Shown: piece after piece, positions 321 to 12,583 of the stretch
Layout of the letters: every line of letters begins with the position of its first letter
Numbering within the stretch: position 1 is the stretch's first letter
Assembly: GCA_964016885.1 (NCBI GenBank)
Contig: OZ024764.1
Coordinates: 310,001-374,000 of the forward strand
Direction of reading: 5' to 3'
DNA length: 64,000 bases
From: Eledone cirrhosa
Taxonomy: Eukaryota
Program-made: the position numbers and the translations under genes
Notes under the pieces: model-generated
What the model was told of the DNA's origin: nothing
Database searches by the model: none
Seen by the model: the letters and a program-made list of their open reading frames with translations, nothing else

Positions 321-403
321 CAAAATTGATCCTGTCCTTTGCACTTCTTTTCAGTAACTTCAGTAAAAGGTCTTTCAACTCTGCTGAAGTTCCAGATGGT
401 ATT
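321..403 (-). CDS. ULK1: ULK kinase exon (SIPSGTSAELKDLLLKLLKRSAKDRINF)
   Basis: Subdomain XI resembling ULK1 IPRETSAPLRQLLLALLQRNHKDRMDF; ctgtag| and |gtgagt; 83 nt, phase 2-1 matches previous exon. Confidence 0.92.
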
Positions 404-1139: not shown

Positions 1140-3124
1140 TATTTTCCGTAGTGTTGTAATATAAATATTACACACAGTAGATGGACAGCTCACGTAGTTT
1201 GCTCGACGATTCCAGTTGTAGTTCCAAACGTAATCCGGAGAAAAATAGAAGGATTTAAATGGATACAGTTTAGTTGAAAGGAATTTATTGACACGTGTTT
1301 CTATAACAGTTACATAACCTGAAAACAGCTGCTATCTACAAAGTATTAGTTATGCAGACATTCAATATTTCAATGTTATTATCAACTGTCATTTCATCGG
1401 AATAATTTTACTGAGGACCTGTTTGGTTTTTATAGAGAATATTAGGAGGGAGGGGTGAAGTTGTTAGAAGAATAGTTGAGGGAGTGGTTTTTTGATAGCA
1501 GTGAGAATTTTTGGTGGCAGTGAGTAATTAGATTCCCATCTGTTGTTTTGAAATTTTTATAGAATATATTATTGGTTATTTTTCTAAATCTATAGAAGGA
1601 TTAGAGATAGTATAAATATGCGTGGTTGGTTTTGGTTTTGCACTTAATTAACATTCAGACTTAAATTTTTCTTTCAAGTGTACGTATCCTTTCGCCCACG
1701 CATTCACACACAAACATATATGCACACCTCTACAAAATACATATACTCACATACACATACTTACATGCTCATACTTACATACATATACACATGCATACAT
1801 ATATATATATACACATATAATATATAGTAAGAAACACAGTAAACCGTGTGTCTAAAATTACAAGGGTTGAAAAACCACATATGCTTGAAATATTTAACCA
1901 AGAAACAGACAGAATGACAAAATGAAAATAAAAATATATTATCATAATAATACAAACCGCCTCAATAACCATTATATCTCTCGGACAGATTATCCCTAAT
2001 CTGTTTCGCCCTGAGTGTGTTTGTAACAGATAATCCTGGGCTTCATCAGCGAGAGATTGTGATTAAATGTCACAAACACTATTTGCCAACGTTCACACAG
2101 AAAGATGAATTTATCACCTCGTGCTCCGCCAGTCAAACGTGGTAAGCGCGTATTGAACAGAAATAACAGTCCAACACGCACAACTTAATAGCTCAACTTG
2201 TAAGGAAGCAGAAATATATATATATGAATTAGAACCCTGTAACCATTATACACACATATATACATGTACATACATACGCGTTCATGTGTATACATTTTCA
2301 TACTCAACTTATCTTTATATACACACATATAGACACACACATATATACATACATACTCCAGTCTATGTGTATATATATATATATATATATAAACACTTTA
2401 ATACATGAATACACTTACATCTAACTATACACATCAAACATATATATATATTTACTTATTTATATACATTTTCACATATATATACATACTTATGGTCGCT
2501 TTTAGACACATTCATTATAGCATATTTACACCTATTCTCATCAGCATATCTTTCCATTATTAGTGTGGTAATTTAAGGTTATTAATATACATATATATGT
2601 TGAGAAGAGATTGTTTTTATATTTTTCTAACTAGATTGAGGTTTATATAGTTGGGGGGATGTCCCTCTTTTATGTAATATTCAGCTTGTAGTGGGAAAAA
2701 AGGGTTTTAGTTCGGTGACGGCAGAATAATATTCGTTCAATTCTGTTATTCAGCAATTTCCTCTTGTGTGTGATTATGTAATAAATCTCAAGATTACACA
2801 ATTTGCAGAAATTTTAGCTCCTGGAAAAGCTTTGGGTTTTAGCTAATTTCTCCCATTTTAAATTCTCACTGCTATCAAAAAACCACTCCCTCAACTATTC
2901 TTCTAACAACTTCACCCCTCCCTCCTAATATTCTTTATAAAAACCAAACAGGTCCTCAGTAAAATTATTCCGATGAAATGACAGTTGATAATAACATTGA
3001 AATATTGAATGTCTGCATAACTAATACTTTGTAGATAGCAGCTGTTTTCAGGTTATGTAACTGTTATAGAAACACGTGTCAATAAATTCCTTTTAACTAA
3101 ACTGTATCCATTTAAATCCTTCTA
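1140..3124. mobile_element. Rearranged Penelope-like element remnant
   Basis: Minus 2860-2700 reads LKWEKLAKTQSFSRS*NFCKLCNLEIYYIITHKRKLLNNRIERILFCRHRTK, the CxLC..E..LLNxRxE..CRH end of PLE GIY-YIG domains; ~265-bp inverted repeat 1246-1511/2861-3124; internal hammerhead; (TA)n flanks. Confidence 0.72.
1976..2057 (-). ncRNA. Type I hammerhead ribozyme
   Basis: atctctcg-CTGATGA-a-gccc...gggc-GAAA-cagatta/ggga/taatctg-TC-cgagagat: intact core, 8-bp stem I, 7-bp stem III, GUC site. Confidence 0.88.
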
Positions 3125-3261
3125 TATATATATATATATAGATATATATAGTAATAATAATAAATGCGAAGACTAAAATCAAAAGAGGGCTCGATAAGGA
3201 TAAATATATATCAAATATATAAGAACCCTAGAGCAAATATTTATTAAAATAACAGATTAAA

Positions 3262-4989: not shown

Positions 4990-5382
4990 TATATTTACAC
5001 AAACACACACACATATATATACATATATATACACACACACATATATATACATATATATACACACACATATATATATATATATAGCTACATATACACACAG
5101 ACAACAAGATAATATATATACATCTACTCACGTTAACACTATACAATGTATGTTTATACCCAAACTGTATACACACCATTTTATACACTAAATTATTTCA
5201 ACATTGACATAATATTTACATTACAATTAATAACAATAACACCAACACTGATAACAGTGATGACGGTGGTGATGACGGTGGTGGTGGTGATGACGATATT
5301 CTGATGGTAAACAACAACAATAACAGGACTGATAACAGTGGTGGTGATGGTGATGATGATGATAATGATATAGTGATGGGGA

Positions 5383-7190
5383 TGTAGGTGTCATGACAAA
5401 CAACACCAAGTCACCACTGTAAAGTGGTCATGTAGGTGTCACAACAAAAAGTACCCAGCCCACACTGTAAAGTGGTCATGTAGGTGTCACAACAAAAAGT
5501 ACCCAGTCCACACTGTAAAGTGGTCATGTAGGTGTCACAACAAAAAGTACCCATTCCACACTGTAAAGTGGTCATGTAGGTGTCACAACAAAAAGTACCC
5601 AGTCCACACTGTAAAGTGGTCATGTAGGTGTCACAACAAAAAGTACCCATTCCACACTGTAAAGTGGTCATGTAGGTGTCACAACAAAAAGTATCCAGTC
5701 CACACTGTAAAGTGGTCATATAGGTGTCACAACAAAAAGTACCCAGTCCACACTGTAAAGTGGTCATGTAGGTGTCACAACAAAAAGTACCCAGTCCACA
5801 CTGTAAAGTGATCATGTAGGTGTCACAACAAAAAGCACCCAGTCCACACTGTAAAGTGGTCATGTAGGTGTCACAACAAAAAGTACCCAGTCCACACTGT
5901 AAAGTGGTCATATAGGTGTCACAACAAAAAGTACCCAGTCCACACTGTAAAGTGGTCATGTAGGTGTCACAACAAAAAGTACCCAGTCCACACTGTAAAG
6001 TGATCATGTAGGTGTCACAACAAAAAGCACCCAGTCCACACTGTAAAGTGGTCATGTAGGTGTCACAACAAAAAGTACCCAGTCCACCCTGTAAAGTGGT
6101 CATGTAGGTGTCACAACAAAAAGTACCCAGCCCACACTGTAAAGTAGTCATGTAGGTGTCACAACAAAAAGTACCCATTCCACACTGTAAAGTGGTCATG
6201 TAGGTGTCACAACAAAAAGTACCCAGTCCACACTGTAAAGTGGTCATGTAGGTGTCACAACAAAAAGTACCCATTCCACACTGTAAAGTGGTCATGTAGG
6301 TGTCACAACAAAAAGTACCCAGCCCACACTGTAAAGTGGTCATGTAGGTGTCACAACAAAAAGTACCCATTCCAGACTGTAAAGTGGTCATGTAGGTGTC
6401 ACAACAAAAAGTATCCAGTCCACACTGTAAAGTGGTCATATAGGTGTCACAACAAAAAGTACCCAGTCCACACTGTAAAGTGGTCATGTAGGTGTCACAA
6501 CAAACAACACCCAGTCCACTCTGTAAAGTGGTCATGTAGGTGTCACAACAAACAACACCCAGTCTACACTGTAAAGTGGTCATGTAGGTGTCACAACAAA
6601 CAACACCCAGTCCACACTGTAAAGTGGTCATGTAGGTGTCACAACAAAAAGTACCCAGTCCAAAATGTAAAGTGGTCATGTAGGTGTCACAACAAACAAC
6701 ACCCAGTCCACACTGTAAAGTGGTCATGTAGGTGTCACAACAAAAAGTACCCAGTCCACAATGTAAAGTGGTCATGTAGGTGTCACAACAAACAACACCC
6801 AGTCCACTCTGTAAAGTGGTCATGTAGGTGTCACAACAAAAAGTACCCAGTCCACAATGTAAAGTGGTCATGTAGGTGTCACAACAAACAACACCCAGTC
6901 CACACTGTAAAGTGGTCATGTAGGTGTCACAACAAACAGCACCCAGTCTACACTGTAAAGTGGTCATGTAGGTGTCATAACAAATAGCACCCAGTCCACA
7001 CTGTAAAGTGGTCATGTAGGTGTCACAACAAACAACACCCAGTCCACACTGTAAAGTGGTCATGTAGGTGTCACAACAAACAGCACCCAGTCTACACTGT
7101 AAAGTGGTCATGTAGGGGTCACAACAAAAAGTACCCTGTCCACACTGTAAAGCAGTCATGTAGGTGTCACAACACCCAGTCCCCACTGTA
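5383..7190. repeat. 48-bp minisatellite, ~37 units
   Basis: Unit cacactgtaaagtggtcatgtaggtgtcacaacaaaaagtacccagtc. Confidence 0.95.
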
Positions 7191-7531
7191 AATATGGTGA
7201 CATTACGTCAGTGGTATGATAACACTTTTGTCAATATGGTGACAACATTGTGAAGGCTAACAACAACAACAGTGACAATGGCATGTTGACAACAACAATG
7301 TTATAGCGGTGTGGTGGTGGTGGCGGGACAATGGTAGTGGTGGTGTGGTGAAATGACATCAACACCACCAACAACAACAACAATATACTACAATGGCTTA
7401 CCTAGACACAAGGTCATAAATATTTTGGGTGGTGACTTCATGGGTGGGATGGGGTGGGGTGGTAGTAGTGGAGGTGGAGGGGAAATGTTGGTGTGATGGT
7501 GTTGGGATGATATTTATATATATATATATAT

Positions 7532-7880
7532 GGAGGCACATGGCTTAGTGGTTAGAGCATTGGTCTTGCAATCGAAAGGTTGTGAGTTCAATTCTCAGAC
7601 CGGGTGATGTGTTGTTTCCTTGAGCAAGACACTTTATTTCACATTGCTCCAGTTTACTCAGCTGTAGAAATGAGATGATAGGACTGGGGTCCATATCATC
7701 CCACTGTAAAGTGGTCGTGGAGGGGCCACGGCAAAAAAGCACCCAGCCCTCACTGTAAATGAGGTTGGTGTTAGGAAGGGCATCCAGCTGTAGAATCAAG
7801 CCAAAATCAATTCCCGTCCCACCCTTGCAAGCAGGGAAAAGCGGACGTAAAATGAAATGATGATGATGATGATGATGATA
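7532..7880 (+). mobile_element. SINE family A
   Basis: Full-length copy. Confidence 0.9.
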
Positions 7881-7904
7881 TATATATATATCATTAGACA
7901 GTAG

Positions 7905-8582
7905 AAGTCGCATTGATAGACACATTCTTCAAATGCAGGAGGGCGCTATAGAAGTGGTGGATAGCTTCCGGTACCTAGGAGATCAGATTAGCATGGGAGG
8001 AGGGTGTTCCGAGGCCATAGTATCTAGAATAAGGACGGGTTGGAAGAAGTTTAGGGAGCTGCTTCCTCTGTTGACGAAGAAGGGTTTCTCCCTGCGTACG
8101 AAAGGCCGGTTGTATGATGCTTGTGTGAGGAGCGCGATGCTGCATGGTAGTGAGACATGGGCAGCATCTGCAGAGGATATGCGACGGCTGGAGAGAAATG
8201 AAGCAAGCATGCTCCGTTGGATGTGCAGTGTAAATGTGCGTGAACGACCCAGCATAAATGTGTTGAGAGAGAAACTGTGTCTGAGAGGGATAGAATGTAG
8301 TGTACGGAGGAGGAGACTGAGGTGGTATGGACATGTGATGCGCATGGAGGATGACCGATGGGTGAAGAAGTGCCAGGAATTGCCAGTTGAAGGAAGACGT
8401 GGTAGAGGTAGACCACGAAAAACATGGGCGGAGGTGGTGAGAACAGACCTCAAATCATTGAAGCTCACGGTGGAGATGACGAGGGACCGTGACGAGTGGA
8501 GATATGCTGTGCTGAATAAGACCCCTCCTTCCTTTGCAAGCAGGAAAAAGCGGACGTAAAATGATGATGATGATCATCATCA
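7905..8582 (+). mobile_element. RTE LINE 3' fragment
   Basis: FRYLGD...GSETW...RLRWYGHVMRM...RGRGRPRKTW, (GAT)n tail. Confidence 0.92.
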
Positions 8583-12422: not shown

Positions 12423-12583
12423 GAGGGTTTCAATTCGCTATGTTTCTCATAGAACTGCTTCAGTTGTTGGGGGGTCTGTGCCTGGAACGGGGCTTTGCCA
12501 GTTAAACATTGAAAGACAATAGTCCCAATACTCCACAGGTCAGCTTTGGCATCGTATTGGAGGGACATTATTACTTCTGGGGC
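12423..12583 (-). CDS. ULK1: ULK kinase exon (APEVIMSLQYDAKADLWSIGTIVFQCLTGKAPFQAQTPQQLKQFYEKHSELKP)
   Basis: APE and DLWS motifs; tttttcag| and |gtacgt; 161 nt, phase 0-2. Confidence 0.95.

What the first reader, a model, noticed from the sequence alone, without database searches (positions are those of the whole stretch)
1976..2057. Best-formed hammerhead lies on the ULK sense strand, inside a Penelope remnant
Seen: intact core, 8-bp stem I, 7-bp stem III and a GUC site on the minus strand, in the 12-kb intron before exon 403-321. It has no nearby antisense partner. It sits in a region with a PLE GIY-YIG C-terminal remnant (2700-2860) and a 265-bp inverted repeat, tying the ribozymes to PLEs in this window. 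A segment of loop II (gattatctg) closely duplicates stem III sequence and could allow an alternative fold. Inference: it could cleave as a monomer and cut ULK pre-mRNA co-transcriptionally.
Basis: partly seen in the sequence, partly recalled or inferred. Interest (0 to 1): 0.7.

Follow-up and report, generated by a model that had tools for sequence, protein, structure and literature searches.

The report
Self-locking retrozyme copy in ULK intron
This hammerhead self-cutting RNA motif is real, but it is one of hundreds of copies of a young non-coding jumping repeat that landed inside a separate Penelope transposon in an autophagy-kinase intron, and neighbouring sequence is predicted to fold it shut, so it is likely a passenger rather than a regulator of the gene.

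Summary
The type I hammerhead at 2057-1976 (minus strand, ULK1/2 sense, intron 12422-404) is confirmed, with an extra A after A9. It does not belong to the surrounding Penelope remnant. It lies in a 430-bp piece (1819-2248) of a 472-bp non-coding tandem unit with 220 exact-core and about 800-900 looser matches genome-wide. The piece was inserted secondarily into the Penelope pseudo-LTR; 0 of 49 other loci of that Penelope family carry it. Family insertions show Penelope-type footprints: two fixed 3' ends in (TA)n, 5' truncation and inversion. It is a non-LTR retrozyme; this scan reported similar octopus retrozymes on other DNA before. It drops the predicted nested hammerhead fold from about 0.4 (82-mer) to about 0.001 in context. 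The complementarity persists in older subfamilies, without compensatory changes. It is either a lock or a pseudoknot; energies cannot decide. Cleavage of ULK pre-mRNA is untested, no RNA run was listed, and the insertion is very young, so regulation is unlikely. New member of a known kind, with a testable structural twist.

The parts
1976..2057 (-). Type I hammerhead ribozyme (stems 8/4/8 bp, extra A at 2042, 26-nt loop II 2037-2012, GUC, predicted cut 1984/1983)
2061..2079 (-). 5' flank strand of the flank-loop II helix (2079-2068 pairs with 2028-2017, 12 bp; 2065-2061 pairs with 2035-2031, 5 bp); predicted lock or pseudoknot
2017..2035 (-). Loop II strand of the same helix; includes the segment that resembles stem III
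1819..2248 (-). Retrozyme insertion: 430 bp of a 472-bp non-coding unit, one ribozyme only, 3' end at the unit's internal TA site (unit position about 405), 99% identical to family copies
1808..1819 (.). Left copy of an imperfect 12-14-bp target-site duplication (right copy 2247-2260, one extra CA unit)
1245..2860 (-). Host Penelope-like element remnant: ORF C-terminus 2860-2670 followed by pseudo-LTR, interrupted by the retrozyme (some loci extend the match to about 1091)
2860..3125 (+). Inverted 5' arm of the PLE insertion (mirror of 1245-1510)
2964..3012 (+). The PLE's own minimal hammerhead-like motif, core CCGAUGA (U4 to C) in this copy; mirror at about 1406-1358 on the minus strand
12423..12583 (-). 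ULK1/2 kinase exon upstream of the intron
321..403 (-). ULK1/2 kinase exon downstream of the intron

Best explanation
The hammerhead is part of a young, non-coding 472-bp tandem repeat family (a non-LTR retrozyme) that is likely copied by a Penelope-type enzyme; a single sub-unit-length copy sits inside a separate Penelope remnant in the ULK intron, where a flank-loop II helix is predicted to keep it mostly folded shut, so it is likely a near-neutral passenger. Shown: ribozyme anatomy, family, unit length, nesting, insertion footprint, conserved complementarity. Inferred life cycle: tandem copies are read through, the ribozymes cut out unit-length RNA, it is circularised, and a PLE RT/endonuclease nicks (TA)n and reverse-transcribes it from one of two internal start sites, giving partial tandems and inversions. 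Inferred role of the helix: it forms first during transcription, slows cleavage and protects the circle. This copy has one ribozyme, so it cannot release a unit circle; at most it makes a slow single cut in the intron.
For: Family: 40 of 40 scored candidates (of 1,322) gave 46 matches, full-length ones 97-100% identical; 220 exact-core matches, control 0; 886 (control 2) and 790 (control 0) with looser patterns. Unit 472 nt, 35% GC; same-strand spacing 472 in 4 of 24 distinct young events; a 7-copy 457-bp array listed. Nesting: the two PLE halves are contiguous without the unit in 16 empty-site alignments from 15 of 19 PLE loci; 0 of 49 PLE-family loci carry the unit and 2 of 129 retrozyme loci (some overlapping) have that PLE nearby, neither nested; no unit similarity to 64 loci of two PLE families other than the L087/L181 fusion and TA/AT runs. 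Footprint: 33 termini in 23 of 24 events end at two sites about 65 nt apart (17 and 16), each followed by a TA run; 10 of 10 events with two opposite-strand termini use one site at each end, like the one-sided PLE tail (PMC8557442 passages; PMC11167929). Lock: nested-fold probability of the hammerhead 0.38-0.43 with up to 15 nt of flank, 8e-6 with 22 nt, about 1e-3 in the whole insertion and in the circle, same at 12 and 20 C; duplex -22.2 kcal/mol against shuffle mean -7.5, 1 of 2000 equal; both strands conserved in 34 copies picked on stem III only, 90.5% of cells paired. Slow intronic ribozymes did not affect splicing (Fong 2009 as cited in PMC10919898).
Against: No RNA, circle, cleavage or expression data. 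The helix shows 0 of 17 pairs with a compensatory change and the covariation score is not above shuffles (57 of 500); one pair is broken in 26 of 34 copies. The lock dominates in 16 of 18 young/intermediate copies but only 4 of 16 older ones. ViennaRNA ignores pseudoknots; a rough hammerhead-plus-pseudoknot estimate (-29 to -34 kcal/mol, recalled penalty range) overlaps the lock (-34.1). No autonomous partner was identified by sequence. Only 4 of 24 young events hold two same-strand ribozymes.
Confidence: 0.7

Rival explanations
1. Same retrozyme, but the flank-loop II helix is the stem I/stem II tertiary pseudoknot of a fast ribozyme (and keeps the loop II decoy away from stem III), so this copy would cut ULK pre-mRNA often enough to lower spliced mRNA as an unselected side effect.
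For: About 40% of hammerheads use such a pseudoknot, including the human C10 intronic one (PMC3088659 passages). Rough energies overlap. Stem I can form in the loop of the helix, and an upper stem I partner is equally conserved (93.5% paired). In several sister copies the flank restores stem III (for example 0.02 to 0.88). Stem III of 8 bp removes the need for a dimer.
Against: The full 17-bp helix leaves only 2+5 nt to close stem II (geometry inferred). Only 1,580 nt separate the cut from the 3' splice site against 9,931 nt for CPEB3; measured retrozyme rates are about 0.8 and 0.1 per min. No covariation.
Confidence: 0.18
2. The copy has been domesticated as a regulator of ULK (autophagy) mRNA, like CPEB3 or the conserved amniote intronic hammerheads.
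For: Sense orientation, intact core, kinase-domain intron, single copy.
Against: 99-100% identical to dispersed family copies, so the intact core reflects youth; nested in a PLE copy itself about 99% identical to its family; any intronic insertion has an even prior chance of being sense; no conservation data in other species.
Confidence: 0.05
3. The 472-bp unit is simply the pseudo-LTR of an autonomous PLE not yet sampled, and all copies seen are 5'-truncated products.
For: PLE-type footprint; Xenopus retrozymes are related to pLTRs (bioRxiv 10.64898/2026.07.22.740005); one older copy abuts a PLE endonuclease fragment (L087).
Against: 5' ends run into a previous unit, not into an ORF; PLE-protein hits in 130 loci are separated by microsatellite, lie 3' of the unit or belong to other insertions in the four inspected; pure head-to-tail arrays exist; the ribozyme is not the minimal PLE type.
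Confidence: 0.07

Closest known systems
Metazoan non-LTR retrozymes (Cervera and de la Pena 2020, PMC7229834; Li, Clavereau and Pollet, bioRxiv 10.64898/2026.07.22.740005)
   Same: Non-coding, low-GC (35%) tandem unit with one type I hammerhead; monomers, dimers and arrays; long TSD; PLE-rich genome; about 43% of Xenopus copies are intronic, so an intronic copy is ordinary.
   Different: Unit 472 nt (above the 170-400 nt first described, inside the 51-972 later range); stem III 8 bp instead of about 2; 26-nt loop II; hammerhead predicted to be blocked by a local helix, whereas most metazoan circles were predicted to leave it free (some mussel circles excepted). Expression and circles not shown here.
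Penelope-like elements, EN+ clades (Neptune-like by the Cys linker, label recalled and from PMC8557442 passages) and their minimal pLTR hammerheads (PMC4209133)
   Same: [quoted passage not shown]
   Different: No ORF; no sequence similarity to the pLTRs of the two PLE families tested; full stem III rather than a minimal palindromic one.
Pseudoknotted hammerheads (Perreault et al. 2011, PMC3088659) and self-blocked plant retrozyme/viroid hammerheads
   Same: Base-paired contact between loop II and sequence extending stem I; blocking by a complementary strand is the known viroid/plant solution.
   Different: Helix here is 12+5 bp, longer than the 4-6-bp contacts seen in the passages; role undecided; no compensatory changes.
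Functional intronic ribozymes (CPEB3, PMC10919898; RECK/C10orf118 hammerheads)
   Same: Sense-strand self-cleaving motif in an intron of a protein-coding gene.
   Different: Those are single-copy and conserved across species; this is a very young copy of a multicopy mobile family.

Membership tests
Type I hammerhead ribozyme | CUGANGA / GAAA / UH core with stems I-III, stem I open | tested here: met
   extra A after A9 is a described variant (PMC4209133)
Type I hammerhead ribozyme | Variation pattern consistent with the fold | tested here: inconclusive
   Stems 97-99% paired, one compensatory pair in stem I, N7 variable; overall covariation score not above shuffles (57/500); stem III was the selection pattern
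Type I hammerhead ribozyme | Rfam gathering score | tested here: not met
   HH9 14.6 bits against 52; long loops II and III are outside the model
Type I hammerhead ribozyme | Self-cleavage at the predicted site | not testable with these tools
   needs an assay
Non-LTR retrozyme | Short non-coding low-GC unit with one type I hammerhead | tested here: met
   472 nt, 35% GC, no ORF of note
Non-LTR retrozyme | Head-to-tail tandem copies with a ribozyme in each unit (family level) | tested here: met
   4 of 24 young events, plus longer arrays
Non-LTR retrozyme | Two consecutive ribozymes at this locus (active copy by Li et al.) | tested here: not met
   one ribozyme, 430 of 472 bp
Non-LTR retrozyme | Expressed as linear and circular unit-length RNA | not testable with these tools
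   no RNA holder listed
Part of the surrounding PLE remnant | Ribozyme unit present in other copies of that PLE family | tested here: not met
   0 of 49 loci; empty sites
PLE-mobilised element | Fixed 3' ends with one-sided tail, 5' truncation and inversion, microsatellite target | tested here: met
PLE-mobilised element | Sequence shared with the pLTR of an autonomous partner | tested here: inconclusive
   none in two families tested; many other PLE families untested (59,858 first-look candidates)
Domesticated intronic ribozyme | Conserved at the orthologous intron across species | not testable with these tools
   no relatives held for this genome; youth argues against

The most novel reading that the evidence does not exclude
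An animal retrozyme lineage carries a built-in, locally encoded conformational switch: a monomer-competent hammerhead whose loop II is captured by a 12+5-bp flank helix that became stronger in the youngest, expanding subfamilies, protecting the circle and sparing host pre-mRNAs such as ULK, and opening only on refolding or PLE-protein binding. This would answer, for one family, how animal retrozyme circles avoid cutting themselves and how sense intronic copies are tolerated.
Probability: 0.3. Interest if true: 0.6.

Novelty: new member of a known kind. Interest (0 to 1): 0.36.

Why it matters
The locus itself is probably an ordinary recent insertion. Its value is as a test bed. Cervera and de la Pena (2020) left open how animal retrozyme circles escape self-cleavage; this family offers a specific 19-nt flank element whose deletion and compensatory mutation decide between lock and pseudoknot in one experiment, with natural subfamilies of differing helix strength as a series. 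The footprint adds to the case that PLE enzymes mobilise retrozymes.

Tried and rejected
Rfam on the whole window listed no hammerhead among the 150 of 201 matches shown; the local scan gave only a sub-threshold HH9. RNA evidence: no RNA holder listed; the runs laid were contigs of unrecorded kind and show neither ends nor expression; no joint skipping the retrozyme or the PLE at this locus was listed, which says nothing about polymorphism because the flanks are repeats. A covariance model was built but could not be run on this genome, so remote relatives outside the three patterns are unexamined. Pfam and PDB gave no hit for the PLE ORF; its identity rests on motif reading and the Atlas (clusters with RVT_1, GIY-YIG, HTH_animal at 0.95-0.98). 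Search for an autonomous partner in two PLE families found no shared pLTR sequence. Rows dropped before alignment A3: 18 of 52 sequences (truncated, deleted or near-duplicate). One 'site2' line (L012) is an internal deletion, not a terminus, and L027 was not caught. The one shuffle that equalled the observed duplex energy may be the original sequence regenerated. Literature searches that found no description of this family or of a locked cephalopod retrozyme; subscription papers are largely outside the library, Miller and Silver 1991 was not held, and bioRxiv supplements were not seen. A genome-wide sense/antisense test of intronic copies was not possible without annotation.

Full report
Observation. 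On the minus strand 2057-1976 reads as a type I hammerhead: stem I 8 bp, core C3-A9 at 2049-2043 followed by one extra A (2042), stem II 4 bp, a 26-nt loop II, GAAA, stem III of 7 bp plus A15.1-U16.1 closed by GGGA, and GUC with the predicted cut between 1984 and 1983. The isolated 82-mer folds this way (z -2.54). The extra nucleotide between 9 and 10.1 is described for PLE and some canonical hammerheads (PMC4209133, parts 1-2 of 4 read). Rfam gives only a sub-threshold HH9 match. The host gene is ULK1/2 on the same strand: exons 12583-12423 and 403-321 match consecutive parts of the human ULK1 kinase domain across a GT-AG intron 12422-404. The cut would lie 10,438 nt after the donor and 1,580 nt before the acceptor.

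The ribozyme belongs to its own repeat family. A DNA search of the 3.0-Gb genome gave 1,322 candidates; the 40 scored yielded full-length matches of 97-100%. Exact patterns give 220 (control 0), 886 (control 2), 251 (control 2) and 790 matches (control 0). Homology of the 29 other loci to the window is confined to 1819-2248, simple repeats and short pieces of other repeats aside. Tandem loci define a 472-nt unit, 35% GC, without coding capacity; 4 of 24 distinct young events have two same-strand ribozymes 472 nt apart, and longer arrays occur. Older subfamilies at 85-89% and about 70-80% identity exist. The window holds 430 bp, one ribozyme and no antisense copy.

The Penelope remnant is a separate, earlier insertion. 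Region 2560-3125 has 2,419 candidates. Its relatives carry an RT plus endonuclease ORF (Atlas clusters with RVT_1, GIY-YIG and HTH_animal; several open 785-aa frames; no Pfam or PDB hit). The window keeps the last 63 codons with one stop, the pseudo-LTR, and an inverted arm (266 nt, 99%). In the relatives, window segments 1245-1819 and 2247-2860 are adjacent; 16 empty-site alignments from 15 of 19 loci show a short TA/CA tract where the window has the unit, with an imperfect 12-14-bp duplication. None of 49 loci of this PLE family carries the unit, and 2 of 129 retrozyme loci have that PLE nearby without nesting. The PLE has its own minimal hammerhead-like motif, with U4 changed to C in this copy. 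So the position is a nested insertion into a shared TA-rich target.

The link to PLEs is in the footprint. In 23 of 24 young events, 33 termini end at two sites about 65 nt apart (17 and 16), each running into a TA tract; in 10 of 10 events with termini on both strands, one end uses each site. 5' ends vary through the unit and into the previous unit, and about half the events have an inverted 5' part. This matches the tandem/inverted structure with a one-sided tail described for PLEs (PMC8557442, passages) and the two internal RT start sites shown in vitro (PMC11167929, parts 1-2 of 4; that paper also found hammerhead cleavage dispensable for insertion and protein-assisted). The 3' ends do not coincide with the cleavage site (unit position 240), which fits a circular or multimeric template (inference). 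One older copy is fused at its 3' end to a truncated endonuclease fragment of a second PLE family (L087), a single possible template switch. No shared pLTR sequence was found in the two families tested, so the partner is unknown.

Flank 2079-2068 is complementary to loop II 2028-2017 (12 bp) and 2065-2061 to 2035-2031 (5 bp). With up to 15 nt of flank the constrained hammerhead holds about 0.4 of the ensemble; with 22 nt 8e-6; in the whole insertion and in the circle about 1e-3; the result holds at 12 and 20 C. The duplex is -22.2 kcal/mol against a shuffle mean of -7.5 (1 of 2000 equal). In 34 copies chosen on stem III alone (34 of 52), both strands persist while upstream columns vary: 90.5% of cells paired, 11 of 17 pairs varying on one side only, none with a compensatory change, one pair broken in 26 of 34; the overall covariation score does not beat shuffles (57 of 500). 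The helix dominates in 16 of 18 young or intermediate copies but 4 of 16 older ones; the middle pairs are mismatched in old subfamilies and paired in the youngest. An upper stem I for the same flank bases is equally conserved. A rough estimate for hammerhead plus 12-bp pseudoknot (-29 to -34 kcal/mol, penalties recalled) overlaps the locked fold (-34.1). So the helix is likely real, but lock and pseudoknot cannot be told apart by computation.

How it most likely works. Family level, inferred from the anatomy and the published model (PMC7229834, passages and sections 14 and 17; PMC7761336 passages): read-through transcription of tandem copies, cleavage to unit length, circularisation, then reverse transcription by a PLE enzyme at TA tracts. 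Locus level: one ribozyme cannot release a unit; it can only cut once. To disturb ULK splicing it would have to beat the polymerase over 1.6 kb, under a minute at the mammalian 3.5-4 kb/min quoted for CPEB3, whose ribozyme has 9.9 kb and a 2-3 min half-life; slow synthetic intronic ribozymes had no effect (PMC10919898 passages, citing Fong 2009, which I did not see). Long introns may splice later and a cold-water animal may transcribe more slowly, so some cutting is not excluded. Measured retrozyme rates are about 0.8 (coral) and 0.1 per min (mussel). The copy is 99% identical to its family inside a PLE about 99% identical to its own, so an intact core is no sign of selection for the host. Intronic copies are common in Xenopus (42-44%), with modest depletion (bioRxiv 10.64898/2026.07.22.740005, parts 1-3 of 5, supplements not seen), where 1 of 9 tested dimers cleaved.

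Comparison and novelty. It meets the sequence-testable features of a non-LTR retrozyme at family level and fails membership of the surrounding PLE. It differs from the described animal retrozyme ribozymes in the 8-bp stem III, the 26-nt loop II and the predicted local block; Cervera and de la Pena state that most metazoan circles are predicted to leave the ribozyme free, some mussel circles excepted. Pseudoknots between stems I and II are common in hammerheads (PMC3088659 passages), and attenuation by an alternative structure is known from a plant satellite RNA (Miller and Silver 1991, title only in the reference list of PMC6155905). Searches found no description of this family. Earlier notes of this scan report other octopus retrozymes with PLE footprints, two in this genome; none matched this sequence or the lock wording. 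The label octopus-like comes from those notes and recall, not from a call of mine.

Verdict. Observation confirmed; interpretation partly supported. New member of a known kind, interest 0.36. The boldest reading not excluded is a built-in conformational switch that protects the circle and host pre-mRNAs (probability 0.3, interest 0.6).

Noticed in passing
window 13700-12580 (-): About 29 tandem copies of a 39-bp unit that duplicates the ULK splice acceptor and the first codons of the APEVIMS exon, giving many competing in-frame acceptors.
   Followed up: no
window 14856-14796(-), 15927-15873(-)/16113-16167(+), 16509-16467(-), 16950-17014(+), 18691-18621(-)/18810-18880(+), 18400-18478(+): Further hammerhead-like motifs, most of the minimal type with palindromic stem III, several in inverted pairs.
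   Followed up: no
L087 1845-2810 (G000:C1 about 71.016 Mb): Older retrozyme copy with 5' inversion fused at its 3' end directly to a 5'-truncated endonuclease fragment of a second PLE family, same strand; possible template switch.
   Followed up: partly
G000, e.g. C4:296252793, C5:61860212, C11:3559313: The PLE family of the window remnant has several copies with an open 785-aa frame and 98% identity; candidate active element.
   Followed up: partly
L105, L121, L130, L131 versus window 1997-1992: The stem III loop occurs as GGGA in young subfamilies and as its reverse complement TCCC in intermediate ones, suggesting a micro-inversion within the hairpin.
   Followed up: no
alignment A3 columns 50-53: Subfamilies carry one to three extra nucleotides between A9 and G10.1.
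   Followed up: partly
window 5255-8100 and 61500-63650: Long 48-bp minisatellite arrays giving spurious long open frames.
   Followed up: no
G000:C1 217.43-217.66 Mb (L072-L075): Four identical inverted retrozyme insertions about 30-110 kb apart, probably a segmental duplication or assembly repeat.
   Followed up: no
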